Part shown: positions 2-62,072 of the stretch, piece by piece
Layout of the letters: the number at the start of each line of letters is the position of its first letter
Numbering within the stretch: the first letter of the stretch is position 1
DNA from: Euglena gracilis
Lineage: Eukaryota
Reading direction: 5' to 3'
DNA length: 64,000 nt
Assembly: GCA_039621445.1 (NCBI GenBank)
Contig: CP154954.1
Location: 25,556,954-25,620,953, forward strand
Notes under the pieces: model-generated
Database searches by the model: none
Told to the model about the DNA's origin: nothing
Seen by the model: the letters and a program-made list of their open reading frames with translations, nothing else
Position numbers and translations under genes: made by a program

Positions 2-4466
<4,465 letters not shown>

Positions 4467-7094
4467 GTGGACCTGGAGCCCCCGGGAACACTACGGGGGG
4501 GGGGGGCAGAAATCTCTTTGATTTCAGTGACCCAGGGGGGGGGGGTTCACCTCTACCCCCTCCCTGGAGGCGGGGATGCTTTTTTTTCCAGCGCAAAGCA
4601 CCGAAAAAAACCCAAATTTTGGGGTCAATTTGGCCCCCAAAAGCGAGTCCCCCCCGTGCCCAGGGTTTGATATAAGGAGGGCGTACATGGTTTAGGTGGG
4701 GGGGGGGTGTCCCCCCACCCCCCCTCCTGGCCCGCAGGGGGGGGGGTCCCGACCACCCCCCCACCTGTCCTTATATCAAACCCTGCCCGTGCCCTCTCAC
4801 CCGTATCTTCTCCCCCACTAGCAGGAAGGAGGATGGCTGGGTCCGTCCCCCCTCCCTGGGCAGGGCTGTACACCCCCCACCAGGCTTTCTCGTATTTCCG
4901 GGGGTGCCAATTTTTAGGTCAAAATTTTATTCGGCGCCAAAGGAATTTTCTTTGCGTGGGTGCCATGGTGGGGGGGGGGGGTCCGACCACTTCCCATCCA
5001 GCCCTGCCCCTGGGTGCCAAAGGAAAGCCTCTGGGGAGGGGTCGGCCACAGCCCCCCCCCCCCAAGGACATTCTCGTCCCACCCTGGGGAAGACAAGCGC
5101 AGCCTGTCCTCCGTCCAGTCCCCGACGGGCGAGCCCGGGCAGTGGACCCGAATGGGCAGCGGCTGAGGGGGCAGGGCGGACTGCCTGGCCACTGTGAGGC
5201 CGCCCCCGCGTGTCAGGGGGAGGCGGGCGGCCCAGGCAGCGATGATTGGCGCCGGAGGCGGTGGCTCCCGAGGGCTGCCTGTCTGACCCCTCTGCGCGTG
5301 TGTCCACGCGTCATGACCCTGCACTGGTCCCCGCAGCAGGCTTTTTTGAATCCTCCAAAGGGCGGTGGTCCTCATACCGTTTGTTTGGAAATTTTCAGCC
5401 AGCCCGCAGGGTTTTACCCAAGATTGGACCCAAGGAAAGGATTGGTTGCTCCGTCCGTCGAAACCAGGATGTCGCTTAAGCCGGAGCAGGGGGTGTTGAA
5501 GCTAGCCAGCAGCCTTTTTCCAGCCTCTGACCCCCTTCCCCCTATGGACGTTTTTATTTGCGTTTATTTATTGGACGGCAATGGATCTTTCGCTTTCGGA
5601 GGTGCAAGAATGGGTCAAAAATGGGCGAAATTGGGTCGGAAGAGGGCTGGCCAGTGCAAATTTAGGGTCAAAAAATGATTTTAACAACCGGTGGTTTTGG
5701 GGGCATTTCTCAGTTTCGATTTTTTGGGTGGAAACCCCTCTCCTGGCCCGAGGGGAGTGACTCAAAGCGCTGGAGGGGCGGTTTGAGTTTCTGTTTCCCG
5801 GCGCAAACCATCGCATTCCCAGACCCACCCCGGTCCAAAACGTGCCCCACGGGGCTGCGGTCCCCCCCCTCCTTTAAAGGAGGAAACAAAAGGCCCCACA
5901 ATGCGCGTCATCCCGTCCCACCTTCCAAACCGACCGCCCGGCCGCAGGGACCCCAGGGTCCGCCAAAGGAAGCCTGCCCACCGCCGCTGCACTCCGCCCC
6001 GGCTGTCCCTGACCCACACCCACACCCACACCCACACCAGGATTCCATTTAAGGGTTCACAGTGCCTCTGGGGGGGAGGGGGGGCTCGCCTGCAGGTAGT
6101 CCAAATTTGGTCAGCGGAAATGCTAGTGGACCCCGGGAGGGTCTGCCTGAAGCTATCGAGTGGAAAGTATTTTTCTCCGGTTTTTTTTGTCCCAGTGACC
6201 GGGGCAAAGCTCTGTAATTTTTTTTCATCCCCAAAACATGTGCAGCGAAGGGCAAAGGGTTGTTCCAGGGTGGTCCCCTGCCAACCCTCCCCTTGACCGT
6301 AGGGGTTCAGGACCACCCCCATCTGATTTTATGAACAATTTATGCCCTTACCTTGGTGTCCCCTTTGACGTCATGTCAAACCCTGCTCCCGGGCCACAAT
6401 TCCTCACTGTCTGTGGCTGAGGGGGCGTGTCCCTGCATCTGCCTGTCAACCCAGAGGTGATGTGCCTGTCTCTCAACCCCTGTTATTGCCCTGGTGCCAT
6501 GCTATGCCCCCGCGTGCCCCAGGCTCGGTTCCATCAAAGCTCATTCATATGTGGCCACCGATTTGTGGAACACTTTCCTCGCAACTGCTACACGTAATTT
6601 ATAAGTGCTGGCTGGACACACAAGTCCACCAACAATTATTTGTCTCGAATTCATGTCAATTTTCTGCTTTTTAATTTCAAAAATTGCAAATATGGCCATG
6701 GTGAATTTCCGGTCAGAAATTTTGGTGCACAAGGAATTGTGTGGTGCTGTGGTGGGTTGCGGGTCGAACCCAGGCTTCGAAATAAGGTGGTACAGGGTAT
6801 AGGTATGGGGGTGCCCCCCCCCCTACTGGAGGGGGTTCCTAATTTTAAAGGTTTGAGAAAATTTGCTTAAAATATAGTTCCTGGACTGGACCCCCAAAGC
6901 AGTCCAGATAAAAATGAAGAGCGGTGAAATGACGAAGGAAAATGTTATCCCCTCGGGCCTGGGCCAGAACTGCAGGTAAGGCCAGCCTTGGGGAGGGGTT
7001 TGCATGTTAAGAAGTTCGGCAGACCAAGCGCAAAATAGGTCTACTCTGGGGCCAAGGGGACATTTTTATGTAAGGAGGCGGGGGGCCAGGCGGC

Positions 7095-7197
7095 ACATAC
7101 ATACATACATACATACATACATACATACATACATACATACATACATACATACATACATACATACATACATACATACATACATACATACATACATACA

Positions 7198-7231
<34 letters not shown>

Positions 7232-7695
7232 CATATACATACATACATACATACATACATACATACATACATACATACATACATACATACATACATACAT
7301 ACATACATACATACATACATACATACATACATACATACATACATACATACATACATACATGCATGCATGCATGCATGCATGCATGCACGCATGCATGCAT
7401 GCATGCATGCATGCATACATACATACATACATACATACATACATACATACATACATACATACATACATACATACATACATACATGCATGCATGCATGCAG
7501 ACATGCATACATACATATATACATACATACATACATACATACATACATACATACATGCATACATACATACATCCATACATACATACATACATACACGCAT
7601 GCATACATGCATGCATGCATACATACATACATACATACATACATACATACATACATACATACATACATACATACATACATACATACATACACACA
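7095..7695. repeat. (TACA)n / (TGCA)n tetranucleotide microsatellite
   Basis: Directly visible. Confidence 0.98.
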
Positions 7696-10600
7696 TTCCT
7701 GCATACATTGATTTTTTTTCGCAATTCTAGCATCTATCGCCTGCTCAATTTCGGACCCAGGAAGCACATTGTTTCTAAATAAAACCTCCCTTGGATGGTG
7801 GCTCCTCTAAATTTTTTGGAAAGGTTTGGTGGGGGAAAGTGAATGGGACGGCAGTTTTTGGGTCATTTCGTCTCATTTTTGTTTCTTGCAATTTTGTCAA
7901 GGTTGTGCTTGCTGTATGGGTTGGAATTGATTCCTATTGCTGTAAATACAGTTTTGATGGGGACAGATCTATCAAAGAGGCTCGTTTGTCGACAGTGTGG
8001 ATTCATTTCCTGGCCAGATTGGCACGTGCGTCCCAATTTGCACTGTTAATGTCCTGCAGCAATGCAACCTTCCCCCTCGCGCATCGAGTTCATGGGTGTG
8101 GCCCCTCTTTCCCTGATCCCCCAGGTTTTGGGAGTCACTACCCCCCCCAAAGGTTTCCACCTGGGTGAAATGCACCTGTTTTTCAGGCGATTTTTTTCTC
8201 GGTGGCTCACTGTCCCCTTAATTGGGCTGTTGTAGCCAACGTGGCGTCCTAAAGCGTCCCCAAAGGCTGTTGGATTGCCCGGACCAATGAAATGGGTGGG
8301 CAGGGGATTTCTTAAGCTGGAGGGGACCCCATCCCCGGGGGGTTGAGTGAAATAAAGTTGGGTCCAGCCCGGCCGGAGGCCGGGCCAGCCGGCCGCAGGC
8401 TGGCCAGCCAATTGGGCTGCCCAGCTCACCTATCCCTGCATTTTTTCCCCTCATCACAGCTTCCTTCATCACAGCCTTGATCTAGCTCCGTCCATCAAAT
8501 TTTCGAGAAGGCAAAAATGCTTTATAAAATTTTGTTTTCCATCTACCCAGCCCAGCCCACCCCTCCAGCCCCAGACCCCCCCTATCCCCCGGGTGTGTCC
8601 AGCCAGCCGCTCGTAGCCAGCCAGCAGCCTTTTTGTCAGCCCGAGGCTGGACCCCCCCGGGGGGGGGGGAGTCCTTAAGAAAGCCCCTGTCTGCGGGGGG
8701 ATAAAAATTTCGGGGGGGAATCGACAATTGCAGTTTTCCCACAATTTCCACATTTTTCTGCATCCTCGATGCTCGGTTTTTTCTCTTTCCGAAACTTTTT
8801 TCGCATCAACCTGAAATGGCAGACAAAACGAGTTCCAGTCATTTCTTGAACACTTCACAATGGAATTCAGGTGCTTTTTTACCATTTTGTCACAAGATCT
8901 GCCAAAATTCTATGCTGGCAATTCCTTGGCCTTTATTGGGTATTTCCCCAATTTCTGCTGGGAAATAATTTCGCTTAAAAAATTCGCATCCTGGACCAGT
9001 TTTTTATCTGGGGTCAAATTTTTCGTCATTTTTTTTGCCGTTTCCGTTTTTTTTTTTAGCCATCTTATTCCATCTTTTTAAAGTCAGTGTGTCCCCAAAA
9101 ATAACAAAAATTGTGTTTTTAATATTTTTATGTTGTAAAAAAATTAATAACAGCTCAAAACATACACCAATGCTCAAAATGACAAAAATTGTGAAACTTT
9201 TTTTCAAGTTCCTTCTGGCAGAAGTGTGCATATTCCCAATATTGCCATTTCCACAATTTTCCTGCCATTTTCTGCAACTTTTTTCCCCGAAGGCCATCAA
9301 TTTTAGTCCCCCCCCTTGTTCTGCAGTGCACTAGAAACACCCCCACCTTGGGGGTATGACTGAGTTGCTTCATGGGCTGCGAGTCAGGGTCCGATTAAAA
9401 AGAAGGCCTCCCCCCTGCCCGAGAGTGTTGGCAGCCAGGGGGAAATTGTCATTTTTCAAACTCCAGGGGGGTGTTGGCGGTGGTGCTGTTGCAGAAACCC
9501 TGGCATCAAGGCCGCCAGGGTCTGGTCATTGTAAGTTTTTTTCCCCCTGCATCAGGCCCAATGCCGGCCTTTGGGAGGTGTCTGCTACCTACCCATGCCT
9601 TTGTCTCATTGCCCCCCCCCCCCCCCCCTTCCCCCCCCCCCCCCCCCCCCCCCCGCCCCGGTTGTTGTGGTGAGCTTGACCCCCAGCCAGGCCTTGCTGA
9701 AATGACCCAAAATGGCCTGAAATTATTTTTGACCCCCTGTAGGGGGGGGGGTCCTTAATAATGACTTTGAATGGCCTGAAATTCCTAAAATGGTCCAGAA
9801 TGGGAGACATTCTGCTGCACAACGTTTTTTCTGTGAGCAACGGGAGTCATTGGGGGTCGTTCGGGTGGAGATTTCAGTTCGGTGCCTTTTATGGATGTGG
9901 GCAGCAAACGGCGGAGTTGGCAGACGATGGCGGAGGAGCAAGCACAGTCCCACAGGGCCCATTTCTGATCCCAAATAACAATTACGTCCCCAAATCCACA
10001 ATCCCCAGCCATCTCAGCCGCCACCTCCCAGCCCACAAACCAGCCCCTCTGACAAATGAACAATACACATTCAACGCCCACTTGTGTGAGCAGGCTTGTG
10101 CTCAGTCGGGTGCCTACCCCACGGGGGGGGGGTGCTAGGGGCAGGCACCCCATAGCACCCCATCCGACCCCCCGGGGGGCAGGGTTTGGGGGGGGGGCCT
10201 GCCCATAGCAGGCACCCCCCTCCGACCCCGGTGCCAAAGGCGCCGGGGGCCCGGAAAAGGCCATTTTCAATGAAAAGTTTTCTTGGACCCCCCCAACCCC
10301 TACCCCCGGGGGGGGGGTGCCTGCTAGGGGTACCCACCCACCCCCCTCCCATGTGTGTGAGGATACTTGCCTTTGTGATGCCCAATTTAATCCAATGCAC
10401 TTTTTCTGAAACAGAAACATCAGCAACAATGCAACCAGGCAAAAAGGCCTAATATGGCCTAACATGGATTAAAATGGCTTAAAATGGCCCAAAGTGTCCT
10501 AAAGTGAGATAATTTTGTGGCTTGAAAATTTTTCATGATGAATCAAATGTTATTGATATGTTTACAATTTCAAACACCTGAAACAATTTTTTGACCTACT

Positions 10601-24581: not shown

Positions 24582-28679
<4,098 letters not shown>

Positions 28680-30417
28680 CCGCCGCGCCTTCCGCTCGCC
28701 CTTCTCCCGGTGCCCTGGACCGCCCCTCCGCCTCTCTCGGGCATGCCCCGTCCTTCCCCCGTTGGTCCGCACTTAGGCGGCCGGATTCGCATTTAAACTT
28801 TTTTATGTTGATTTACGCATTTGTGCAAATGTGCGAATGTTTTGATTTCGGCTGTGAAGGTCAGGGGGGTTTGTGAAAACACGGCGACCAGAGAGTGCAA
28901 AAAATGAGCAAAATTCTGTCTTTGACGGCACGACCTCTGGGAAAAAATGGTGGTTTTGGGTGGTCCGAAAACGGGCTTTGCACGTCAAAACCCCTGGACC
29001 TTCCCTCCCCCCGGAAGCGAAAACAACACAAAAAAGCGACACAGGAATGGGACCTTTGCTGCCCTTGTTGCTCTTTTCGGCTGTCTCCCCGGGTATCCCC
29101 GAGCTGCCGGCAGTGTGTGTCCTGGGTGTTTGCCGGACTGCTTTGCTTGCGGCGCCTTGGTGTGGTGTTTTTGGTGTGTTTGTTGTTGTGTTGGTGCGTG
29201 CATTTGCGCAAATGAACACAATTTTGCCCTTCAAGGATTGGGCTTTGGCGCCCTTCAATTGACGCTGTCGATAAACGACGTGGCATAGGGGCCGTGACAG
29301 CACGGACCAGAGGGCCGTCCGGAAACATGGTCGGTTTGCCACACTGTTTGTCGACGGCGCAAGTAAATGCGCGCATGAACAAAAATGTGTTTATGCGCGC
29401 AGTTGCGCCCATCAACACAATTTGTGTTGGTGGGCGCAAATGGGTGCATAGACACAAAGAAGAAGGTCGTGACAGACACACAACCGTCAAACACCGGCAG
29501 CAGATGTGGTTCATTTGCGCATTTGCGCACATCGCATTTTTTTGTGGTGCAAATGCGCAAATGAACCGCATGAATAATTTTGTGCAAATTGCATCTGGTT
29601 CATTTGCGCATTTGTGCCCACAAAGAAAGTGATGCGCGCAAATGCGCAAATGAACCATCAATGGAGGAGTAAAAAGCGGCTCCATTTGGCCCTCCAACAG
29701 CTACCCTTAGTGGCTTCTGAATGGGTTCAACCCAAACAACCGCACCGTCTTCTTCAACGTCAGGTATTAGGGGTTAATTCTACTCTGGTGACAGGAAAGA
29801 TAGAGATAGAGGATCTCCTGAAGGTGGGTGCGCACCCAATAACGGCGCACGTCTGCTGGCACCGGTTTTAGGATCCCAAGGGCCCTGCCACTAACCAGCG
29901 GCCTGGGCTCCGCTGCTGCAGCCACATCAGCTGCCGGGCACCCACCAGACCGGAATCAACCTCCCCGATGCAACAACACCCAGCTTTAGCGACCACGTTA
30001 TTCCCCGCAACCGGGGCGTTAGACTGGTCTGACGACGTGGTGTTAGTGCGTGGCAACCGGCAGCCGGAGAAAGGTAGCCCTGAAGCACCCCATTACTTTG
30101 GGCGAAGTGGTGAACCTTTACCAATGGCTTGGTTGCATGAAAGCGGTTGGACTTGCTCCCCACAAGTTATGCACAAAAATTGGTGTGTTTTACATTTGTC
30201 GAGGGGAAAATGATGGAGAAGAACCAGAAAACGGACCCCGGCCCGAAACATCCTGGGTATTTTTTTTTCAGGTGCCAAATTTTGTCTTCTTGTGACGCAG
30301 CACTGTTGCAGGAAAGGTGTCGAACAGTCACAGGTCGTTGCACGTCATCAATTCATTACATTTAGCTTCCAGGCGAATGAGGCCAAAACAACCGGCCTTG
30401 TGGGCCGGGGAACAGCA

Positions 30418-30849
30418 GTACCCCCCCCCCCCTATGTCCAACGACCCCCCTATGTCCAATGACCACCCCCCCGGTCAGAGGACACCTTTTCGGAGGTTTG
30501 ACCAAATTTTTGGTCCCGGTGTGAAGCGCCGGGACGAAAAATTTTGCCCAAAAATTGGCCAAAAATTTGGCCAAAGTGCCATTTTTGACACTTTTTTTGA
30601 CAAAAATTTGTCAAAATTGCCCAAAATTTTCAGCGCGAAGCGCCGGAAGGGAAAATTTGGGCATTTTTGGGTGGGTTGGGTACTCATGGGGAAATTGGTG
30701 GGTACCCGGGTACCCACCAATTTTCTTTTGACCCCATGTCCAACGACCGCCCCCCCCCCCGGTCAGAGGACACCTTTTTGGTCACTACCCTATGTCCAAC
30801 GACCCCCCCCCGGTCAGAGGTTACCGGTCATTGGACATAGGGGGGGTAC
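30418..30849. mobile_element. MITE nested in the cargo element
   Basis: TIR GTAC(C)nTATGTCCAACGACC / GGTCATTGGACATA(G)nTAC; internal repeats ccccggtcagaggacacctttt. Confidence 0.8.
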
Positions 30850-30873
30850 AAATGTACACACGTAAATGCGCAC

Positions 30874-31535
30874 TGGCGAGAGCGGAACACAGCATTTACA
30901 AGGTACGTTGTGTCTGAACAAGCGAGCAAGGTTGACAGAGATGAAGAAGATACATCAGAGTATTCACTGGGAGAGTACGAAGTCGATCAGCAAGTCGATT
31001 GCGTACTGTACGAAAGAGGAAACCAGACACGGTAATCGACATGGCTGAAGAGCTTGACTTGACTGCGCCCTACGGCTGGCAGTTGGCGGTGATGAACATC
31101 ATCGCCAGGCCTGTATGCAAGAGAAGCATATACTGGTTTTGGGAACCCGACGGCAACGTTGACAAATCGGAGCTTTGCAGTTGGCTGGTGGCTAAGCATA
31201 ATGCACTCATGCTTTCGGGGAGACCAACTGATATGTATCATATGATATCCAAATTTCCGAAAAAAAGGAAGCTCATGACTATCGATCTCCCAAGATCCGC
31301 ACGAGAGTGTGTGAATTATGAAGCTATCGAACATATCAAGAACGGCCTAGTATTTAGTGGTAAATATGACAGTTGTCAGGTACAGTTTAACAGACCTCAC
31401 GTGATAGGCTTTTCAAACACAAAACCATTTACACACCAGATGAGCACAGATAGATGGTACGTCATCGATATCAGAGAACTCATGAAGAACCCGAAGTCGC
31501 ACGACGAAATAATTCAACGTAGTAAGTTAGCTTAA
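30874..31535 (+). pseudogene. rep: CRESS-DNA virus replication initiator (HUH endonuclease + SF3 helicase), 5'-truncated and frameshifted
   Basis: Motif II GTQHLQG and motif III YCTKEETR in ORF 30866-31048; frameshift at about 31031-31036. ORF 30999-31535 has YGWQ, Walker A GNVDKS, Walker B TIDLPR, IKNGLVFSGKYDS, motif C VIGFSN and arginine finger DRW. Motif I is absent. Confidence 0.95.
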
Positions 31536-32121
31536 TAGTTAGATCAAAAGAACTGTTGGTAGTATCAGCAGTAGCTACATAGGGTATAATATAACACATA
31601 TGCGCTAGACTCTCATCGTATCGTATCGTGATGCAAACTTATCAGATGTCTTCACCGTCATAGGTTTCTCACCGGTAAGCTTTGACACAGACAGATAACC
31701 AGTCAAACGCAGACTGCTCTTATTTCCTAAGGAGTTACTTCCTCGAACCCATCGGTTATTTTTCTTCTCCATGGCTAGCTCAAGCTGAGTATCAGGATCA
31801 TTTACATGACTCAAACGAACACCGAGCCAGAGGGCTCTCTGTGATTGACAGCTGGTGCACGAAATATCGTATTTGATTCCAAACACTCTGTATCCCAGAT
31901 AGAACTGAGGCATCCATTGATCGAACAGGTAGGCTTGATGACCATTGCCATCAGTGCGTGGCATGTAAATGGACGTCTGGTACTGTAAGCCCGAGTTGAT
32001 TATACTGGAATTCGCAACGTAGTGTTGGATGTCGACATAGTTGAGTTTAGTGAAAATCCTATCAGGAAGGCCGCGAGTAATATATGAGGTAGATGGACGT
32101 GCCGTAACCTTACGCCCGAAA
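31480..32121 (-). pseudogene. cap: CRESS-DNA virus capsid protein, 5'-truncated and frameshifted
   Basis: GLPDRIFTKLNYVD..SIYMP..GHQAYLFDQ..YRVFGIKY pattern seen in unclassified CRESS capsids. Removing one of three tandem ACGAT copies (about 31615-31629) restores ...RYDESLAHMCYIIPYVATADTTNSSFDLTIKLTYYVELFRRATSGSS* ending at 31480. Convergent with rep, with 3' ends overlapping by 56 nt. Confidence 0.88.
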
Positions 32122-35100
32122 GTGCAAATGCGCACACAAACACACCTATCACGTTCAAAAGCCTCGTAGGTCCGTGGGAATAATCAGTGTGTTTTAAGAC
32201 AGATATGTTGTTCGTTGCACGCCATTGCACAAACCATCCACATACCAGTTTCCCCAAGACGTTGGTGCGCACAAATGCGCCCATAAACAAATTATGTTTG
32301 TGCGCTCATTTGCGCCCACAAACATGTATTTTTACCTTCAACGTTTTGCATTTTATTTGTGCAAGTGCGCAAATAAACATATTGTGTTTATTTGCGCAAA
32401 TACGCGCATAAACACACATCAGTTGCATGACGGCTGACGTAGTCTGTAGCATCTGATCTAATAAGGCTCCGTGTGTTCCTACGGGCGGCTGCAGTATCCA
32501 AGCCAGTTCAGGCTCCGTGACAGCACCAGTGCCAATAGTCGTAACAGTGGGTGTGTGCTTCCAACCTGTTTGATGCACGAGAGCACCAATCTCTCCCTCC
32601 ACCCCCTTCACGTCATTTGGTAAGCGGCATTTGCACCAAACCTCCTGGAGTTGATCCCCTTCAACACAGGGTTGCCGCAGTTCATAAACTGTTTTCCGTC
32701 TGTCAGGGTACAGGGTCCCAGAAATTCCGTAAAAATTATAAATTTGCGCAAATGCGCCCATTTCAAAGAAAAAAACCCTCGAATCCTGCCGCCTAAGCCG
32801 CACCCACCCCGCCCCCTCCCTCTCGCCTCCTGCGCCGCCCGCTCCTCCAATCGCATGCACAGCTGTCTCAGCCGCACCTCCGCGGCCGCCATCCAGTGGA
32901 ATCCGGTGGACGTGCAAGTCAGCCCTCAGCCTCAGCCCATCGCCGGGCAATGTCGTTCCATAATTTTGTGGTCTCAAAAAAATGGGAGGGGAGTGAGGGA
33001 GGGAGGAGGGAACCCGACGTGTAGGGGGACGTGTGGTAGGGAACGACGTGTAGTAGGGAACCTGACGGGTGGGGGGTCCAGCCAGACACAACTCTCCAAC
33101 AATCTCTGGGCCCAGACAATGGCAACCCCCCCCTTCTTCGCCGAGCCCCCCACCCACCGGCAAAACCCGGGCTGAACCGAGAAATTTTTGGTGCAAGGCG
33201 CCGAAATTTTTTAAAACGGGGTCCAAAGTTGCTTCAAACAACGGCATTTTTGGGTCGTTTTCGGATTTCAAATTTTGGATAAAAAAATGCCAACTGGCTG
33301 GGTTTGGGCTTTGGGGGGTATTTTTTGGGTACCAGCCGGGCCCAGCTCCCAGCCGGCCGGACCCCCCCCCCCGGAACCCTCCAGCCAGCACCTTTTCCAG
33401 CCGGTCCGCGGGACCCCACCCCCCGGGGTGCTTAAGAAAACCCCCAGTGGTGGCTGGCTGGCCGACCGGGTGGGTGCCAAAGCGGACCCCCTAGGTCGTG
33501 AGAAAGCTTGGCTCCTCACGCCCGTCGGGTTGGCTTCCCAACCCAAGTCACCCCATTCCTCCTGGGAAGGAATGGAGGGGGCGGCCCCCGGCTCTTTTCG
33601 ACGCCCCTCCCCCCTTTGGGCCGCGCCTCTGCCATGTGTGCCTCTTGCCTGTCGGGCTCCCGCCCTTGCCCCCGTCCCCCTCTCCCGGCTTGCCCAGTTT
33701 GGTCCGTGTGCTCGCTCTGGCGCTCTGAAGCGGCTGCGACGATCGGCGGTCGGAGGCGGGGGAAGGTTCTGGGTGGGGCCGGGGCTGGAAGGAATCCCTG
33801 GACCCCTATGGTGGTGGGCGGGAGCACACAATCACTTGGTCATTGGCCAACCCCCCTGAGGGGTGGGTGACTGATTTTTTTTCCAGATTTGATTAATGTT
33901 TTTTTTGGCCCGGTCGACCCCTTCCCCTGAGGGGGGAGGGGGTCGACAGAAATCACTTAAGTGGACAGGCATCGAAGGCGTGGAAAAATTCCTCACCCAC
34001 AAAAATTTTTGTGTCCAAAATGAACTGGATTACTGTACCACAATTTCAGCCCTAGGTGGGGTTCATAGAATCATAATTTGGGTTTGTCTTTTGTCCCAAA
34101 TCTGCATCAATTGAAACAGTTGCATGGTGAGGGTGGACCCCTGTCCAGGTCGGTGGGACGCGGTCCAACCCCCGCTTCCCATTTTTCTGAGCCGCCGGTT
34201 TTTAGGTCAAATCTTTCCTCGTGAACCGCCATACGGTGGGTGGGGCCGGCTTTCCGGTACAGACAGCGGTGGGTGGGGCAAACGCCTGTGCGCACGTCGC
34301 CCAAGACCGACGCCCCCATCCTCCTGGGTGGCCGTCCGTGCGTCTGTGTGGCCGCCGTGCCCCCCGCTCTGTCGGGCGGCGCGGCTTCCCCACAGCCAAG
34401 GTTCTCCTGCTCCCCATCCGGCCGCGTGTCCTTCCGACTGTTCTGTTGGGGGATTGGGGCATTGTCTGTGAATGATTCTCTGTTGTCTGACACCCTTTTT
34501 TGAAGAAAAAAAATCATCCTTGGTGATCTTTGTCCAATTTATGCGAGCGGCCGAGCTCAGGTAACGGCCGGGGGCGGTCCCTACCGAAATTTCAAACTGC
34601 CACATTACGCCTCCAAGCTACGGCTGAGGCATTTGGTTTGTAACGGCGTCTTGTTTGATGCCAAAGGTTCCATGAAGCGATGGCCGCACAAACGCCTTAT
34701 CCCAACCAGAGTAATGGTCCCCAAAGCACGACTTTCGTCGCACTCCTAATTGCAGGGCAGTGTTGGCGGCGCCAAACCCTTTTTGCTTGTCCCCCGCCGC
34801 CACCGCCCCCCCCCCCCTGCCTCGGACTGCCTGGCCTCCCCGCGGCCGGGGTCTGGGGCCGGCCTGCCACACTCTGTCCCACCCCTCGGCCAGGCGTCCA
34901 GATCAGATTTTTACCCAAGAGCAATTTGCGTCACATTTGAACATTTTCCGATTTTTTTGCCAACAAATTCCATACATTTGGCATCAGTATGTACAAAAAT
35001 CACAAAAAACCTTGGTTTGAGACTTTTTTTGAAAAAAGGAAAATGCGAATGCCAGTTCAAGACGAGCACCAATTTAATTTGCATAATGGGAAAGACCATC

Positions 35101-49789: not shown

Positions 49790-50438
<649 letters not shown>

Positions 50439-51807
50439 TACCCACCATCCACCCCCCTCTCCCCACCAAACTCAACGTCTTCTTATTTTAGATTTTCGCT
50501 TGGTCGGCCCGGGTCTTATTTTTGTGGGGTCTTATTGGGGGGGGGGGGCTTATTTTGGGGGGGGGGGTACCCAAAATGAGATTTTTCGATGAAACTTCAC
50601 CAATTTTTTAATTTTTTAAAGTGCCAAAAATGTGGTAAATGTCAACTTACACCAATTATGAAAAAAAGATGTTTTTTTCTCAGCCCGGGTCAGAAGAAAA
50701 AATCCAGGGAATAAGACCCCCCTGCAGGTTTCCAGCAACCCAAAAACAAGGCCCAGGCCGTATTTTTTGGGGGGGTCATGGGCCTCTGCCACAAAACGCC
50801 TGACATGATCTGATTTTGGGAGTTCCGCACGTGATGGAGGGGTCCACCCGGGCTGGCTGGGTGGGATGGACCTTCCCTGGGGGTCTTTGAAAGAAGCCTG
50901 CAGTACCCCCCCCCCGGGGGGGGGGGGGGGTGGACTGCAGCTGGTCCAAATTTGGCCAGTGGGATTTCTAGCAGACCCCCCCGGGGGGGCCTGCTAGCAG
51001 GGCTAGCTAGTGGAAATTTTTTGGGACCCCCCAAAAATGGCCAAAAATGCCCACTTTTGGCCATTTTCGGGAATTTTTGGAACAAAATCAGCCAAAAACC
51101 CATTAAAAGCCTCATTTCCACCTCGGCGCTGCGCGCCGAAGGAAACCCCCGGACCCCCCCCCCCCCCCGGGGGGTCTAGCTAGCCCATTTTTTCCAGTGT
51201 CCAGCCGATTGGCTAGCCAGTACTCCCCCCCCCGGGTCCTTAAGCAAAAGCCTGGCCTTCACACAGAAGTATTTTGCATCTTTTTCAATTTTTTAAATAT
51301 TTTATTTTTTTTGCATTTTCCTCCTACGGGTTTTCAACATAAATGTAAACCAATAGATTGCCTCAGAAAAATTTTCATTTTGACTAGATTTTCCCCCGCA
51401 ACCAATCTCGGCATAATTTTTTTGTGATTGTTTTTTATTATCAAAATGGTTTCTTTGTGTAATCATAATAATTTTTCTTTTTTTGTGTCGCCTTGGGACA
51501 GGGTTATTTTTTTACTGGTAACCCTTGTTTAAGGACCACCTTTATCCAAATGGCTTCCAACGGCCGGTCTGGATCTCGGATGGGTGAAACATTAAAACCA
51601 CATTTTTGGGTGTTTTTGGTGGATTGGCGATGGTCCAAGGGTGCTGGAAATCAAAATTTTCCAACGACAACCTGTTTTCACCAGAGAATTTTCTCATTTT
51701 TTCCCTTTTTTTTCCCCTGTGGATGCTCAGTTGAATGTGGGTATTCTGAGTGGTTTTTATTCCCACTTATGGACCGCCCTTCTTCTTCTTCATCCCCAAG
51801 GGTCCCA

Positions 51808-54120: not shown

Positions 54121-56210
54121 GGCGGCGCATCTCGCACTTAAGTTTTTTTTGTCGATTTTCGCTCATCGACCATTTTTTTATTTGGGTGCTGGCGTTACAA
54201 GGGGAGAGAGTGAGAGGCAGCAGGATAGGAAAAAATACGGGCGATTTCTCATTTTTGGCACCGGCTCTCCTGAGAATTACGCTTTTTTGCTGTTTTTTTT
54301 TGGTGGTCGGAATGACACGAAAACCCCCGGACCTGTCCCCCCAAAATGAAAAACACCGACAAAAGCACCAAAATGCCGGTACCGCCTTCCCCCTTTTGGT
54401 GCGATGCGACTCTCCTCACTGGTTCAGCCATGTTTTGAACAAATAAAGCAGGTCGATGTGCGCAATTGCGCACATCGTCCATTCGATGATTGCCTGAAGA
54501 ACGTCCATAAATGCTCCAAGATTCATACTTTTGAAAACGGTGGGTCAAATACCGTGAGTTTGGGGGCGAAGATGAGATCGGTTTGTTGGAGACCCTGGCT
54601 GGCTCCCTCCAGGGGTTTTTGACGCACTTTTCTTGTTTTTGCCGGCCTAAGACTTTTGTTCGTTTGCCAGAGCGCGGAGAACAAGCATGGGGGGTAGGGG
54701 GGCTCCAATCACGCCGCCGGCCCGTGCAGAGAAAGTGGTTTGAAGGGGAGGGATGGGTCGCGAGTCCCCACCGAACTTGCAGTGGGATGCGTCCGGCCAA
54801 ATTGTATCGTGATGAAATGGGAGAATTGATGACACAGATTTCACTGGAATGATTTTTTTGTTGCGCAAATGCGCACATTCGACAACGTGTGCGCATTTGC
54901 GCACACCAAACTCATGTCCCTTTCCATGAAGCGGGAACGGGCCTCGCTGATTTGAGCTTTTTGAAACAAACAATAACTGAAAGAGCTTACCATGCAGCTT
55001 TGCTCTGAAAACAGACAGAAATACACTAGAAGCATCAATTACCAGGTCGGAATTAAAGAAAAAGTGGTCGGTTTGCGCAAATGCGCACGTGGTCCGCATT
55101 TGCACACTTTCAAACACCGACCACATGTGTAAAGGTTGACGTTGTCGGAGTGCGAAATGGGCACACCATGATAACGTGCGCATTTGCGCACACCAACCAC
55201 GATAGCAAAATTCAGACAGAACACATCAAACACGACCCCAAACACCACCTGTAATGGCTCCTTCGGTGTGCAACTTACTCAGCTGCCAAACGCTCTCCTC
55301 AACGATGAGGCTGTTTTCAAGGCCAATTCTGGTCCAGTGACAGGTCCAGGTCCATGTGGAGACCGTAGACCTCTGGTAGGTGGTCCGCCGCTCGCACGTC
55401 ACGACACACGTGCAATGACTCTGCTTGGGGTGGCCCTCGAAAACCCCCGCCACTTGCCCCCTGGCTTGCGTTTTGCTGCACCAGTCACATCAGCTGATGA
55501 TAGCTGGTTGCACTTAAGCATCCACCAGGCCGTCATGAACCCCCGGTTCAGCAGCAGCCACCGACGTTGTGGAATTGGATCCCCATTCAGACAATCAAAA
55601 AAAACCAAAAAAAAAAAAGAATAAAAAACAAACAAAATAAAAAAAAAAACACAAAAAAAAACAAAAAAAAACCAGCCGGGACGGCAGACTGGGTGGGCGG
55701 GCAAGCTGCTAGTCCATGGAAACAATGGAAAATGGGGCAACTCATTCTTTTGGAGGTAGAGAATATTTGATGTTTACACCTGGTTGGGTTGCGTGAAAGT
55801 ATTGGGACTCAGCACCCTTGTTTTTCTGAGGGAAAAATGAGGCATTATTATTGTGGCAAAAACAGAAAAATTGTCCTGGCCAAGGCGTCAGGAAGATTAC
55901 ATATGCGTAATTTTTGAGATTCTGGAAGTCGTTATTTTTTTGAAGAAAGGTGTCCAGCAATCATGGGGGGTTACACATCATCGATTCCTCCCCGCAATTT
56001 CCAAACTGATGGCACGAAAACGATTGGTCGTACGAGTTGGGGATCAGATATGCAAAATTTGCCCTTGGAGAGGACAATAATTCTCCTGTCATATAGTGTG
56101 TTCCACTGCACGTTACGCATAACATAGAAAAACCAAATTTTCTTCACCACACAATATCTTCAACACAATAGTTTGCGCACACAGTGGTCAGTGTGCACAA
56201 ATGCACACGT
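54121..56210. mobile_element. Second member of the TGCGCAAATGCGCA cargo-element family (right end not found)
   Basis: Left end TCA|GGCGGCGCATCTCGCACTTAAGTTTT resembles TTA|GGCGGCCGGATTCGCATTTAAACTTTT at 28776; motifs and hairpins at about 54458, 54862-54903, 55073-55106, 55150-55192 and 56173-56208. Confidence 0.6.
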
Positions 56211-59778: not shown

Positions 59779-62072
59779 ATGGGCTGCACTACCTCCGGGG
59801 CCACTGCCGTCTCGCACGCGGCGGGGCTCCTGGCGACGCCGGCCGCCTCGCCCCGGCGGCCCCACCCCTCCCCATCCGCCACGGCCCTCGCCCGCACCCC
59901 CGCCGTGTGGCCTGGTATGTATGTATGTATGTATGTACGTGTGTATGTATGTATGTATGTATGTATGTATGTATGTATGTATGTATGTATGTATGTATGT
60001 ATGTATGTATGTATGTATGTATGTATGTATGTATGTATGTATGTATGCATGTATGCATGTATGTATGTATGTATGTATGTATGTATGTATGTATGTATGT
60101 ATGGATGGATGGATGGATGTATGGATGGATGTATGGATGGATGGATGTATGGATGGATGGATGGATGTATGTATGGATGTATGGATGTTCATATCAGAAC
60201 ATACATTCTGGTTTTCTCATTTTTTCCACCATTCAATTCAACTCAAGACGGTCGAAAAACTTTTGAATCTTTCGAAGCATTTCGCTTCATCAGTCCTCCA
60301 CAGTGGGCCGATGTTTGGTCGCCACATCCAGACCACAGTACCTGGAGGGTGTCAGCCTCTGCTGCTAGGGTGTGCATGTATCGCACTGCCCCCACCGCTC
60401 CACTCCAACACCCCCTCTGAGTCGGCGTTCGATAGCCTGGGGGAGCAAACCGAGGACGAGGACTCCCCCAGCCAGACCCCTCCCGCCCTCCCCTCCGTGC
60501 CGTGGGCTCTTCTGGTTTTGCATGTAGGCGAGGTAATGAGAGGTTTTCACCGCACTTCTATCACGGGTGTCTCTTGCTTGGCTCTAGTGTGGCTGACGTT
60601 CAATACCTGCACCCCCTCCAGGACGTGCGGAGTACGGTGGGCCGACATATGGCCGGACCACAGTCACACTGGTCAGGGGTGACCAACATGACACCGGAAT
60701 GTGGCTTACCCCCCTCCGCCCCCATGCAGCCCTACGGCCACGACGATGGGGGGCTCTGCGGCCGACAGCCTCCGCACGCTGTCCGACGTGGAGGTGGGCA
60801 GCAGCGCCTCCACAGTCCAGCGCAGCCCCCGGCGGCGGCCGCGCCGCAACGTCCCGCTGAAGTTCCGCGTCCGGGCCAGCCCGGTCTCCCCCCGGCCAGC
60901 GCGGGACCCGCCGCCCACCCCCCGGCCCGCCGCCATGGGCCACTGCGCTCCATCCCGCCCATCATCCGCCCAATATGGCATTTGGGTCAGCCATGCCACT
61001 GTTTCGGTGGGGGGGGTACCCCAGCCCCCTTTTGACCGGGGGGGGGGGGAGGGGTCCGACCCACTCCCCCCACCTGCCTTTTTGTTGAGCCCTGTTGGGG
61101 GGCTGTGCATGGGCCAGTTTTCCAAGAAAGAATAAATGGGAGAGTTGGTTTGGGAAAATTTCCCCCTGGGTCACCAGCGAATCTATGATTGAAGCCCAGA
61201 TGCAAGAACTCACACACATCTATTTGTTTTGTCAGTCGTTTAAGTCACCCAGGTTGTCTTATATTCATTCAAATTTCTTTCGCCTCTTGGGAAGTTGGGT
61301 GAAAAAAAATAAATCCCAAATTTCGCTGCCCAATCCAAGGTGGTTTGTCTGTTCAAAAAGGAAACCATTTTGAGGAATTTGATTTGTGCCGGGAAACAGC
61401 GCTCCTGGTTAGTTTATCGGATGACAGCGGTCAAAAGAAAATTTTCATTCCTTGAGATGTGTCACTGGCTGCAGCCCAAGGGGGGGGGGTCTGTTTGGGG
61501 GGGGGGGGGGGAGGCACCTGAGAAAGCTTCAGGGCAGCTTCCTCCGCATTGACGGGAACCTTCCTGCAGCCTTGTTTTTTTTGGTTTCGCTTCCTGCACA
61601 GCAGATTTTAGCTTTTTGCTTACCTTTCAGGTGCCGACCCCATCTGGGGGGGGAGGTGTGTCTGCCTGGGCAGGTACTCCAAGGCACTCCATATCCGACC
61701 CCCCCGGGGGGGGTTGGGCACTTGGCCAAAAGTGCCTAACAGGCACTCGGGCGCTGAAGGCGTCGGAAGGCTCAAAACAGGCCCATTTTCAAGGAAAATG
61801 GCCTATTTTCTGAGGAAAGTTCTTGGGCACAGGCCGAAATCCAACCCCCCCCCGGGGGGGGGATGCCTGCCTGGGACTCCCCCCCGGGTTGGTAAAAAAA
61901 ACAGCCTGGGTCACGCCGGCGTGGCCCATCCCCCAACCCCAGCCGCCCCCCGGGGCCCGTCCCCCTGCCGCGGACCAGCCGCGTGCACCCGCTGTTCCCC
62001 CCGCGGCCGGCGTGCCCGTACCAGGTGGGCCCGGGGGGCCGCAAGTTGCCGCAGCTGCAGTGCGGCATCTGA
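59779..62072 (+). CDS. 4-exon gene for a ~184-aa protein of unknown function with an N-terminal MGCxxS acylation motif (paralog B)
   Basis: Exons 59779-59901, 60344-60469, 60764-60931, 61935-62072: MGCTTSGATAVSHAAGLLATPAASPRRPHPSPSATALARTP|GGCQPLLLGCACIALPPPLHSNTPSESAFDSLGEQTEDEDSP|DSLRTLSDVEVGSSASTVQRSPRRRPRRNVPLKFRVRASPVSPRPARDPPPTPRPA|NPSRPPGPVPLPRTSRVHPLFPPRPACPYQVGPGGRKLPQLQCGI*. Confidence 0.75.
59902..60343 (+). other. Probable nonconventional intron
   Basis: CCC|GCCGTGTGGCCTGGTATGT pairs with ACATCCAGACCACAGTACCT|GGA; Y|R borders; in frame (an in-frame GT-AG alternative, 59915-60368, also exists). Confidence 0.6.
59915..60187. repeat. (GTAT)n followed by (GGAT)n microsatellite
   Basis: Directly visible. 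Confidence 0.98.
60470..60763 (+). other. Nonconventional intron with the CAG/CTG signature
   Basis: CCC|AGCCAGACCCC ... GGGGGCTCTGCGGCC|GAC; Y|R borders; phase 0; position homologous to 25572-25995. Confidence 0.8.
60932..61934 (+). other. Nonconventional intron
   Basis: GCC|GCCATGGGCCAC ... GTGGCCCATCCCCC|AAC; perfect 9-bp stem from +4 to -6; Y|R borders; restores the frame that matches the C-terminus of paralog A. Confidence 0.75.

What the first reader, a model, noticed from the sequence alone, without database searches (positions are those of the whole stretch)
30874..32121. Endogenous CRESS ssDNA virus (rep + cap) in a probable euglenid genome
Seen: convergent rep and cap with overlapping 3' ends, no introns, and a composition unlike the host (AT-richer, no poly-G/C). 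Established: the motifs HLQG, YCTK, GxxGKS-type Walker A, D.PR, KNG..SGKY, FSN and DRW define a CRESS Rep, here of the nanovirus/alphasatellite-like type. Inference: both genes in native arrangement imply germline capture from a virus that infected this lineage. I know of no characterised ssDNA virus of euglenids, so this could assign a host to an orphan CRESS clade.
Basis: partly seen in the sequence, partly recalled or inferred. Interest (0 to 1): 0.85.

Follow-up and report, generated by a model that had tools for sequence, protein, structure and literature searches.

The report
Dead CRESS virus fragment in genome
A 1.25-kb dead remnant of a small circular single-stranded-DNA virus (most of its replication gene and its capsid gene) sits as a single-copy insert between high-copy repeats of an unnamed, repeat-rich eukaryote; such fossils are known from other protists, so it matters mainly if the host proves to be a euglenid.

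Summary
Window 30874-32125 holds a Rep remnant on the + strand and a convergent capsid gene on the - strand.

Rep matches Pfam Viral_Rep (E 1.2e-9). Its helicase part has 6357 relatives, the best at 61% identity. The capsid reading rests on homologues in about 2-kb circular CRESS genomes and on a jelly-roll model whose best matches are CRESS and circovirus capsids.

The copy is dead:
- It lacks about 65 N-terminal Rep residues (motif I), the origin hairpin and the start of the capsid arm.
- The Rep frame breaks at 31034-31040.
- Walker A reads GNVDKS where 28 of 28 relatives have Gly.
- The capsid frame is broken by an ATCGT repeat that varies between strains.

It is integrated, not a contaminant:
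- Its read depth equals that of nearby unique host DNA in two runs.
- All 20 runs that hold it (16 studies) carry one species label.
- A diverged second copy shares both junctions.
- A 10-bp direct repeat from a host repeat motif flanks the insert.

The euglenid host could not be tested. "Nanovirus-like" holds only loosely. Verdict: a new member of a known kind, of moderate interest.

The parts
28800..29660 (.). Host repeat block built on the palindromic motif TTTGCGCAAA / TTTGCGCAAATGCGC (left block)
   Evidence: the repeat finder families D1/D2. The 15-mer has 17 matches at <=2 mismatches against 0.27 expected. Summed word depth is 1e5-5e5 in runs X1 and X16.
30426..30846 (.). MITE-like host element with 20-21-nt terminal inverted repeats (CCCCCCTATGTCCAAYGACC...), flanked by TAC on both sides. 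It ends 27 nt before the virus-derived sequence.
   Evidence: Inverted repeats I15 and I16, and the sequence itself. Summed word depth is 1.1-1.8 million in X1, against 59 over the insert.
30864..30873 (+). Left copy of the 10-bp direct repeat AAATGCGCAC (core of the host repeat motif) at the left junction
   Evidence: Exact 10-mer search: 6 hits in the window against 0.13 expected. Two of them bracket the insert on the same strand.
30874..31033 (+). Rep remnant, endonuclease part. Motif II HLQG lies at 30893-30904 and motif III YCTK at 31004-31015. It starts at the equivalent of residue ~66 of a 277-aa relative, so motif I is absent.
   Evidence: Pfam PF02407 at E 1.2e-9, profile 32-82/82. 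64% identity to L001 Rep residues 66-118. PDB 2hwt/6h8o at E 7e-5.
31034..31040 (+). Place where the Rep reading frame changes. The linker is shorter than in relatives and in the second copy, P0165.
   Evidence: ORF list. Alignments to L001 and to P0165.
31041..31535 (+). Rep remnant, superfamily-3 helicase part plus stop. Degenerate Walker A GNVDKS lies at 31152-31169 (Asp at 31161-31163). Walker B ..IDLPR, motif C FSN and DRW are present.
   Evidence: phmmer: 6357 hits, best at 61% identity and E 8.7e-60. 58% identity to L001 Rep residues 127-270. Gly in 28 of 28 relatives at the Asp column.
31480..32125 (-). Capsid (Cap) remnant, a single jelly-roll. The window reads it in two frames (32183..31608, then 31638..31483). 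It lacks most of the Arg-rich N-terminal arm that relatives have.
   Evidence: P0001 at 97% identity is the only hit in the 5.8-billion-protein search. Homologues lie opposite Rep in L096 (E 1e-19), L009 (E 2e-12) and 7 further loci. Alignment A3. AF2 pLDDT 71.5. Foldseek against PDB and BFVD.
31615..31629 (.). Three tandem ATCGT units inside cap. Run X16 has 5 nt fewer here, and in X16 and P0001 the cap frame is continuous.
   Evidence: read-laying table 4, 'left out 5' at 31615 in X16 only. Sequence and frames. P0001 sequence.
32126..32135 (+). Right copy of the 10-bp direct repeat AAATGCGCAC at the right junction
   Evidence: It continues into a repeat-like ACAAACACAC.
32110..32760 (.). Host repeat block of the same TTTGCGCAAATGCGC family (right block). 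A third block lies at 54457-55192.
   Evidence: Depth is up to 4.2e5 in X1.

Best explanation
Window 30874-32125 is an endogenous viral element. It is about 1.25 kb of a roughly 1.7-2.2-kb circular Rep-encoding ssDNA (CRESS) virus genome. It became joined into the nuclear DNA of this organism's ancestors inside a copy of a host palindromic repeat, and it has since decayed as neutral DNA.

Shown:
- The two genes are viral: an HUH/S3H Rep and a jelly-roll Cap, convergent, with overlapping 3' ends as in the free relative L096.
- The fragment lacks the segment that in relatives holds Rep residues 1 to about 65 (motif I, and the origin hairpin embedded in the Rep 5' ORF), the short intergenic region and the start of the Cap arm.
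- It carries further lesions: a Rep frame break, Walker A Gly replaced by Asp, and a strain-variable 5-nt repeat unit that breaks Cap.
- It is single-copy by depth, is present in many independent samples of one species label, and varies between them.

Inferred:
- Integration was by illegitimate or microhomology-type end joining of a linearised or partial double-stranded replicative form. It was not by Rep nicking at the origin, because the break points lie inside rep and cap and a 10-bp host motif is duplicated at both ends.
- A MITE-like element landed beside it later.
- The element now does nothing.
- The donor virus most simply infected this lineage.
For: Viral identity:
- Pfam Viral_Rep at E 1.2e-9.
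- 6357 helicase relatives, the best at 61% identity.
- 58-64% identity to the Rep of L001, a circular 2163-nt genome (123-nt terminal repeat).
- Cap homologues lie opposite Rep in 9 of 131 fetched loci.
- The Cap model (pLDDT 71.5, pTM 0.71) best matches PCV2 and bat circovirus capsids in the PDB (E 2.5e-6, TM about 0.5). In BFVD it best matches CRESS capsids (E 3e-19, TMq 0.8).
- The ESM Atlas top clusters are Cressdnaviricota (0.97).
- L096 has the same layout, with a 74-nt 3' overlap.

Integration:
- Word depth over 30974-32045 is 59-74 in X1 and 33-41 in X16. The unique host stretch 32850-33117 reads 47-54 in X1 and 14-25 in X16. The flanking repeats read 1e4-1e6.
- All 20 runs that hold the stretch, from 16 studies, carry one species label.
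- Contigs of two runs (1226 and 1222 nt) start 23 nt inside the MITE terminal repeat.
- P0165 and P0001 are a diverged copy (93% and 97% aa identity). Each comes from a Logan contig of 1376 nt. Their first codons lie in the two 10-bp junction motifs, so that copy has the same junctions, the same N-terminal truncation and the same GNVDKS.

Decay and neutrality:
- There is no origin hairpin anywhere in the window, against 6 of 7 relatives examined.
- The X16 allele differs at 5 sites in cap. All 4 that lie in the window's cap frame change the residue, and the fifth lies past the window-frame stop, where it turns that stop codon into Gln.
- P0165 has its own 5-residue deletion in the conserved FSGKY block.
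- Raw RNA reads of X21 gave zero depth over 30974-32179, with about 5% of the run read, while the flanking repeats got reads.
Against: - No listed short-read contig bridges either junction by the tool's 31-nt rule. The left side reaches only 23 nt into the MITE, and the X1 and X16 contigs stop at 32049, before the right junction.
- That P0165 and P0001 lie on one contig, and that this contig comes from the same species, is inferred from equal contig length and source only.
- The 10-bp direct repeat could be coincidence, because the motif is common in this neighbourhood (6 exact copies in the window).
- Neutrality rests on very few substitutions. Synonymous changes in the P0165/P0001 copy cannot be seen.
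- Run X18, labelled RNA only by a guess, has a 185-nt contig at 31420-31604 (depth 2.2) and one at 32023-32123. Weak transcription is therefore not excluded.
- Rep and Cap do not have the same nearest relatives. None of the 9 loci with this Cap type falls in the 25-row Rep group that holds the element. The donor may therefore be a recombinant lineage not yet sampled.
Confidence: 0.88

Rival explanations
1. The stretch is not in the host chromosome. It is an exogenous or episomal CRESS virus, or a contaminant, joined to host repeats by mis-assembly.
For: The X1 and X16 short-read contigs break at both edges of the insert (30823/30824 and 32049) and do not formally bridge the junctions. CRESS genomes are common contaminants and co-occurring sequences (recalled; see also PMC7541821, passages read).
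Against: - Depth equals nearby unique host DNA in two runs of different years and studies.
- All 20 runs that hold it, from 16 studies, carry one species label.
- The sequence is a truncated, frame-broken fragment without an origin, so it could not replicate.
- A second, diverged copy begins and ends in the same host-motif junctions.
- Indel and SNP variation between strains behaves like a chromosomal locus.
Confidence: 0.03
2. The capsid gene, or the whole element, has been co-opted by the host and is kept by selection, for example as an antiviral or structural gene.
For: The Cap frame is continuous (216 codons) in run X16 and in P0001. The Rep remnant is continuous (223 codons) in P0165. X18 has low-depth contigs over parts of the element.
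Against: - The window's strain and run X1 carry the frame-breaking extra repeat unit.
- 4 of 4 in-frame Cap differences in X16 change the residue.
- Cap has lost most of its Arg-rich arm.
- Rep lacks motif I, has Asp in Walker A, and in P0165 carries a deletion in a conserved block.
- X21 RNA reads gave zero depth over the element.
Confidence: 0.05
3. It is a true integration, but the donor virus never infected this lineage. The DNA came from an ingested virus particle or from a virus of prey or a symbiont.
For: Near-identical CRESS sequences occur in single cells of unrelated protist phyla and were argued to be ingested rather than infecting (PMC7541821, passages read). The donor lineage itself was not found: the best Rep relative is 61% identical and the best Cap relative 30%.
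Against: Integration needs viral DNA in the nucleus, most simply as the double-stranded replicative form made during infection (established knowledge of CRESS replication, recalled). The same logic was used to assign hosts to CRESS families from integrated copies in Giardia and Entamoeba (PMC7493932, title and abstract seen).
Confidence: 0.08

Closest known systems
Endogenous CRESS-virus elements of protists used for host assignment (Entamoeba and Giardia; PMC7493932, only title and abstract seen)
   Same: Both are rep (and cap) of a CRESS virus integrated in a protist-type nuclear genome, degraded, and usable as evidence of a past virus-host link.
   Different: The virus lineage and the host differ, and the host here is unnamed. 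This copy keeps both genes in native convergent order, and its junctions lie in a host repeat with a 10-bp direct repeat.
Uncultured circular CRESS genomes L001/L082 (2163 nt), L002, L083, L086 and protein P0002 (IMG/VR, metagenomes, Logan)
   Same: Rep is 56-61% identical in the helicase part and 64% in the nuclease part. They fall in the same 25-row group on the Rep tree (SH-aLRT 90). Rep and Cap are convergent.
   Different: These are free circles with an origin hairpin [CT]AGTATTAC inside the Rep 5' ORF. L001's Cap shows no similarity to the element's Cap (E 56).
Circular contigs L096 (1762 nt) and L009 (2048 nt)
   Same: Their Cap is homologous (30% identity over 204 aa at E 1e-19; 26% at E 2e-12). 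Motifs are shared: GHQP..D, Y.RYRV.G, and the C-terminal L.YYVEFF. L096 has the same rep/cap 3' overlap (74 nt against 56 nt).
   Different: Their Reps are only 42-43% identical to the element's and fall in other parts of the tree. Their Caps keep a 35-45-residue Arg-rich arm.
'Picobiliphyte sp. MS584-5 nanovirus' Rep (P0175) and 'CRESS virus sp. ctwD22' Rep (P0167), as named by NCBI
   Same: 55% and 58% identity over 87-88% of the helicase piece. Both come from aquatic or protist-associated sampling, judging by the names.
   Different: Neither is classified in Nanoviridae. The picobiliphyte link is by co-occurrence in one cell (recalled, not read; searches found no paper on it other than PMC7541821).
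Nanoviridae / Alphasatellitidae
   Same: The Rep nuclease piece's best solved relatives are 2hwt and 6h8o (E 7e-5), which I recall to be a nanovirus master Rep. Relatives carry a TAGTATTAC-type nonanucleotide.
   Different: Nanovirids have several circles of about 1 kb with one gene each, and alphasatellites encode Rep alone (recalled). Here rep and cap are adjacent on one fragment, and on one circle of about 2 kb in relatives.
Circoviridae capsid (PCV2, bat circovirus)
   Same: These are the best solved-structure matches of the Cap model, with a single jelly-roll fold (E 2.5e-6, TM 0.45-0.56).
   Different: Sequence identity is 9-12%. The likeness is at fold level only. The Rep nuclease piece scores E 0.32 against 7kii, and the helicase piece has no PDB hit.

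Membership tests
Cressdnaviricota (virus-derived sequence) | Rep with HUH endonuclease motifs II (HxQ) and III (YxxK) | tested here: met
   HLQG and YCTK are present. Pfam PF02407 at E 1.2e-9, above the cut-off. 64% identity to L001 Rep residues 66-118.
Cressdnaviricota (virus-derived sequence) | Rep endonuclease motif I (e.g. CFTxNN) and an intact N-terminus | tested here: not met
   The match starts at profile position 32 of 82 and at residue 66 of L001 Rep. Upstream DNA is host repeat. This shows truncation of the fossil, not a different family.
Cressdnaviricota (virus-derived sequence) | Superfamily-3 helicase domain with Walker A, Walker B and motif C | tested here: met
   Homology is overwhelming (E 8.7e-60; 3117 hits at E<=1e-10). 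Walker B and motif C are present. Walker A is degenerate, with Asp where 28 of 28 relatives have Gly.
Cressdnaviricota (virus-derived sequence) | Jelly-roll capsid gene next to rep | tested here: met
   Cap homologues lie opposite Rep in 9 loci. The model at pLDDT 71.5 matches CRESS and circovirus capsids.
Cressdnaviricota (virus-derived sequence) | Origin stem-loop with a conserved nonanucleotide | tested here: not met
   No hairpin with NANT[AG]TTAC in the loop was found in the whole window, against 6 of 7 relatives examined. This fits loss of the Rep 5' segment, which holds it in relatives.
Endogenous viral element | Read depth like single-copy host DNA, not like an episome | tested here: met
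   59-74 against 47-54 in X1, and 33-41 against 14-25 in X16.
Endogenous viral element | Present at the same site in independent samples or lineages of the host | tested here: met
   20 runs of 16 studies hold it, all under one species label. The X1 and X16 contigs share the same left edge. The diverged copy P0165/P0001 shares both junction motifs.
Endogenous viral element | Reads or contigs that bridge both host-virus junctions | tested here: inconclusive
   The left side reaches 23 nt into the MITE, under the tool's 31-nt rule. On the right, the X1 and X16 contigs stop at 32049. The 1376-nt contig must reach past both junctions, but its DNA could not be read.
Endogenous viral element | Inactivating lesions or neutral decay | tested here: met
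   Truncation, a Rep frame break, Walker A Asp, a Cap frame break that varies between strains, and 4 of 4 in-frame differences changing the residue.
Nanoviridae / Alphasatellitidae | One gene per circle of about 1 kb (multipartite), or Rep alone (alphasatellite) | tested here: not met
   Rep and cap are contiguous and overlap at their 3' ends. Relatives are single circles of about 2 kb with both genes.
Nanoviridae / Alphasatellitidae | Rep groups with nanovirid or alphasatellite Reps in a phylogeny | not tested
   No named nanovirid Rep sequences were available to the tree. The only evidence is the PDB ranking and one source name.
Host = Euglenida | Any euglenid marker: rRNA, spliced-leader RNA gene, conserved protein genes, or a named assembly | not testable with these tools
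   No genome is held. Run organism names are coded.

The most novel reading that the evidence does not exclude
The element would then be the first evidence of a single-stranded-DNA virus in Euglenida. It would also give a host anchor to the aquatic 'picobiliphyte-nanovirus-like' Rep clade, whose members are so far tied to protists only by co-occurrence that may reflect ingestion. One lineage still has unbroken remnant frames and strain alleles differ by well under 1%, so the integration would be recent enough that a live relative may still circulate in such cultures or waters.
Probability: 0.35. Interest if true: 0.65.

Novelty: new member of a known kind. Interest (0 to 1): 0.48.

Why it matters
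Hosts of most CRESS viruses are unknown. Co-occurrence with protist cells can be mere ingestion (PMC7541821, passages read). An integrated copy is one of the few sequence-only clues to a real virus-host contact. This one is clean: both genes are present, both junctions are defined, it varies between strains, and a diverged second copy exists.

If the unnamed host is a euglenid, it would extend ssDNA viruses to that group. My four searches for euglenid or Euglena terms together with CRESS or ssDNA-virus terms found nothing relevant. A 2025 paper states that Discoba has only one known infecting giant virus (PMC12455990, passages read).

If the host is something else, this is one more CRESS fossil of an already familiar kind.

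Tried and rejected
- Whole-genome search: no genome is held for this window.
- Pfam on the helicase piece and on Cap: no family at E<=1.
- PDB by sequence for the helicase piece: only chance-level hits at E about 0.7 or higher.
- Cap in IMG/VR by peptide patterns: no relative. Cap relatives were found only later, by tblastn and HMM searches over loci fetched through Rep.
- AF2 of Cap without an alignment: pLDDT 37.5. The model was discarded and not searched.
It was repeated with the closer set A4.
Absence of these in 64 kb says nothing about the host.
- Rep N-terminus left of the MITE: rejected. That flank is itself high-copy repeat (depth 1.5e5-3.2e5) and has no Rep-like frame.
- A second copy in the window: none.
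- RNA: no RNA holder is listed among the indexed runs.
- Long contigs L092 and L093, which carry Rep relatives, were checked as possible integrations in similar hosts. They are densely coding at 44% GC and unlike this window.
- Literature: no paper holds 'euglenid' with 'Cressdnaviricota'. None holds Euglena, ssDNA virus, endogenous and Rep together. Euglenozoa with Cressdnaviricota gave 3 papers (2 listed), both listed ones metagenome surveys by title and abstract. MS584-5 occurs in none of the 10 papers listed. Picobiliphyte, nanovirus and Rep together gave none.
- Supplementary files of papers were not opened.
Full report
**What is there**

On the + strand, a frame from 30866 reads MRTGESGTQHLQGT...AYCTKEETRHG and then stops. 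A second frame reads from 31041 to a stop at 31533-31535.

- The first piece matches Pfam Viral_Rep (PF02407) at E 1.2e-9 and 38.7 bits against a cut-off of 26. It covers only profile positions 32-82 of 82.
- The second piece matched no Pfam family. A HMMER scan of 1.84 billion representatives gave 6357 hits at E<=1e-3, 3117 at E<=1e-10 and 16 at E<=1e-30. The best was P0002, at 61% identity and E 8.7e-60.
- Of 9 top Rep hits scanned in Pfam, 5 carry Viral_Rep above the cut-off in their N-terminal half.
- On the - strand, a 192-codon stop-to-stop frame (32183..31608) converges on Rep.

**Anatomy of Rep**

The closest genome I could read is L001, an IMG/VR contig of 2286 nt with a 123-nt terminal direct repeat, that is, a circle of 2163 nt. 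It has a 277-aa Rep and a convergent Cap.

- The window's first Rep piece aligns to L001 Rep residues 66-118 (34 of 53 identical).
- The second piece aligns to residues 127-270 (84 of 144 identical).
- The element therefore lacks about 65 N-terminal residues, including motif I. Its frame changes in the linker, between 31034 and 31040.
- In an alignment with 28 relatives, the Walker A column that is Gly in all 28 is Asp in the window (GNVDKS).

**Is the second gene a capsid?**

By sequence it is nearly an orphan.

- The 5.8-billion-protein search found one hit, P0001 (216 aa, 97% identity).
- A peptide-pattern scan of IMG/VR found nothing.
- tblastn and an iterated HMM over the 131 loci fetched through Rep did find homologues, lying opposite Rep in 9 loci: L096 (E 1.1e-19, 30% over 204 aa), L009 (E 2e-12), L123, L006, L043, L039, L022, L008 and L034.
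- Of the 81 IMG/VR loci, 74 have identical terminal repeats, so they are circles.
- The alignment (A3) shows shared blocks: P..R..TKL.Y, GHQP..D, Y..Y.V.G, and the C-terminal L.YYVE.F.
- It also shows that relatives have a 35-45-residue Arg-rich arm, of which the element keeps only the end.
- Cap folded alone gave pLDDT 37.5, and I discarded that model. With A3 it gave pLDDT 71.5 and pTM 0.71.
- Foldseek against the PDB ranks PCV2 and bat circovirus capsids first (E 2.5e-6 to 9e-6, TM 0.45-0.56). Other single jelly-roll capsids follow.
- Against BFVD the top 50 matches run from E 3e-19 to 5e-14 with TMq 0.63-0.82. All those that carry a functional name are capsid or putative capsid proteins of CRESS or uncultured viruses.
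- The ESM Atlas feature search agrees, with top clusters at 0.97 and Cressdnaviricota the commonest taxon.
- L096 has the same architecture as the element: Rep at 42-920 (+), Cap at 1554-847 (-), and a 74-nt 3' overlap.

**The Cap frame and strain variation**

- In the window, Cap stops at 31605-31607. Its homologous C-terminus (…LTYYVELF…) continues in another frame, down to a stop at 31480-31482.
- The window has three tandem ATCGT units at 31615-31629. The contig of run X16 has 5 nt fewer there, and P0001 reads through.
- X16 also differs at 31607, 31714, 31757, 31771 and 31832. The four that lie in the window's Cap frame all change the residue. The change at 31607 lies past the window-frame stop and turns that stop codon into Gln.
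- X1 differs at two Rep sites, one silent and one not.

**Integrated or contaminant?**

- No whole genome is held. I used public runs instead.
- Twenty runs from 16 studies hold part or all of window 30000-33000. All carry one coded species label.
- I laid four runs on 29500-33500. Word depth over 30974-32045 is 59-74 in X1 and 33-41 in X16, with the last bin higher.
- The unique host stretch 32850-33117 reads 47-54 in X1 and 14-25 in X16. The flanks read 1e4 to 1.8e6. The tool warns that summed depth is not a copy number.
- One contig per run covers the insert. In X1 it is 1226 nt, spans 30824-32049 and has 2 differences. In X16 it is 1222 nt, spans 30823-32049 and has 5 differences plus the 5-nt gap.
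- These contigs reach only 23 nt into the left repeat and stop before the right junction. By the tool's 31-nt rule they do not bridge either junction.
- A third protein search gave stronger evidence. P0165 (223 aa, 93% identical) comes from a Logan contig of 1376 nt, the same length and source as P0001's contig.
- P0165 starts with the same MRT, whose first two codons lie in the left junction motif. It has the same N-terminal truncation and the same GNVDKS.
- P0165 also has a continuous linker and its own 5-residue deletion in FSGKYDS. P0001's first codons lie in the right junction motif.
- No contig of that type was laid from X1 or X16 at the 90% threshold. It therefore comes from a more distant strain, a paralogue or a sister species.
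- Two diverged copies with the same host-virus junctions mean one integration followed by separate decay.

**Junctions**

- The exact 10-mer AAATGCGCAC lies at 30864-30873 and at 32126-32135 on the same strand, bracketing the virus-derived 30874-32125.
- It occurs 6 times in the window against 0.13 expected. The other four copies lie in the repeat block at 54.8-55.2 kb.
- It is the core of a host repeat built on the palindrome TTTGCGCAAA. That repeat forms blocks at 28800-29660, 32110-32760 and 54457-55192.
- I read this as insertion into one repeat unit, with duplication of, or microhomology at, 10 bp. This is an inference, and coincidence is possible.
- Immediately to the left lies a 421-nt MITE-like element (30426-30846) with 20-21-nt terminal inverted repeats and TAC on both sides.
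- The DNA left of that element is again high-copy and holds no Rep N-terminus.

**What is missing**

- In 6 of the 7 relatives examined, a hairpin with [CT]AGTATTAC in the loop lies inside the 5' part of the Rep ORF. There is none anywhere in the window.
- The element thus lacks the origin, motif I, the short intergenic region and the start of cap. It cannot replicate.
- The break points are not at the nick site, which argues against Rep-mediated linearisation.

**Expression**

- Raw RNA reads of X21 gave zero depth over 30974-32179, with about 5% of the run read (1.9 billion letters). The flanking repeats were covered.
- X18, whose RNA label is a guess, has two short low-depth contigs on the element.
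- I count this as no sign of expression, not as proof of silence.

**Relatives and classification**

- I built a quick maximum-likelihood tree of the helicase part. It has 157 rows: the window, 39 of the 150 listed hits (P0002-P0040) and one Rep ORF per locus.
- Loci whose match to the helicase profile was short and rows with identical ORF sequences were left out, leaving 160 rows. Three further rows with under 100 residues in the helicase region were then dropped.
- The tree puts the element in a 25-row group (SH-aLRT 90, not starred) with L001, L002, L083-L095 and P0002-P0007. P0002 is the nearest row.
- None of the 9 loci with the element's Cap type is in that group. The Cap label needs 7 changes on the tree. 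Rep and Cap histories therefore differ, or the true donor lineage is unsampled.
- Two relatives are named by their source: 'CRESS virus sp. ctwD22' (58%) and 'Picobiliphyte sp. MS584-5 nanovirus' (55%).
- Among solved structures, the nuclease piece is closest to 2hwt and 6h8o (E 7e-5), against 7kii at E 0.32. That these are a nanovirus Rep and a circovirus Rep is my recollection.
- This gives 'nanovirus-like' some colour. The one-molecule rep+cap layout, however, fails the defining architecture of Nanoviridae and Alphasatellitidae. No named reference Reps were available for a formal placement.

**Host**

Nothing in the window names it.

- There was no Rfam family and no tRNA.
- 0 of 149 sizeable ORFs outside the element hit Pfam at E<=1e-3.
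- A recalled spliced-leader motif is absent.
- An ORF across the MITE has no protein relatives.
- The picture is compatible with what is published for Euglena gracilis. The window is a gene-poor 64 kb full of unknown repeats and microsatellites, and run contig sets total 0.8-2.3 billion letters. The published E. gracilis assembly is 2.37 Gb, with 58.84% repeats and only 2.07% found by protein masking (PMC11252322, passages read).
- That match is not diagnostic. I leave the euglenid claim untested.

**Novelty**

- Integrated CRESS sequences in protists, and their use for host assignment, are established (PMC7493932, title and abstract seen).
- I found no paper that links euglenids or Euglena with CRESS or ssDNA viruses.
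- The 2025 paper on giant-virus insertions in E. gracilis does not mention ssDNA viruses (term search of its text).
- This is a new member of a known kind. Its value depends on naming the host.

Noticed in passing
L001:440-470 (also L002, L003, L083, L086, L096): In these free relatives the origin hairpin with [CT]AGTATTAC lies inside the 5' part of the Rep ORF, on the opposite strand. The tripeptide G-N-T, conserved near the N-terminus of most Reps in alignment A2, is the translation of the complement of the nonanucleotide (in L001, ALGNTESSA spans the whole hairpin).
   Followed up: partly
L092:1-9879 and L093:1-12019: Rep relatives (54% and 49% identity) lie on long, densely coding metagenome contigs of 44% GC. 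L092 has an integrase core domain, an intron-less Hsp70, a Clp protease and a helicase-only Rep ORF of 179 aa. L093 has an enolase with a Dpy-30 motif, a full 277-aa Rep, a 2-cysteine adaptor domain protein and a family-25 glycosyltransferase. These may be integrations in other hosts or in large DNA viruses.
   Followed up: partly
window 30426-30846: A 421-nt MITE-like element with 20-21-nt terminal inverted repeats starting in a C run, internal direct repeats, and TAC on both sides. Summed word depth is about four orders of magnitude above the unique insert in two DNA runs, and RNA reads cover it.
   Followed up: partly
window 28800-29660, 32110-32760, 54457-55192: Three blocks of a repeat built on the perfect palindrome TTTGCGCAAA (often as TTTGCGCAAATGCGC), in both orientations. 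The two blocks around the viral insert form long imperfect inverted repeats (for example 29386-29425 with 32377-32416, 85% complementary).
   Followed up: partly
window 3700-4150, 7000-7750, 24900-25100, 49800-50500, 59950-60250: Long microsatellite arrays show up in the ORF translations: CA/TG runs, a four-base ATAC/GTAT-type unit and a three-base AAT/ATT-type unit of about 650 nt. The 64-kb window has no recognisable protein domain outside the viral insert.
   Followed up: no
Rep tree; loci L006, L008, L009, L022, L034, L039, L043, L096, L123: The Cap type of the element is scattered over the Rep tree (7 changes for 9 loci) and is absent from the element's own Rep group. This suggests exchange of rep and cap modules among these viruses. 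L006 and L123 each carry two copies of the Cap ORF, so they look like contigs longer than one genome unit.
   Followed up: no
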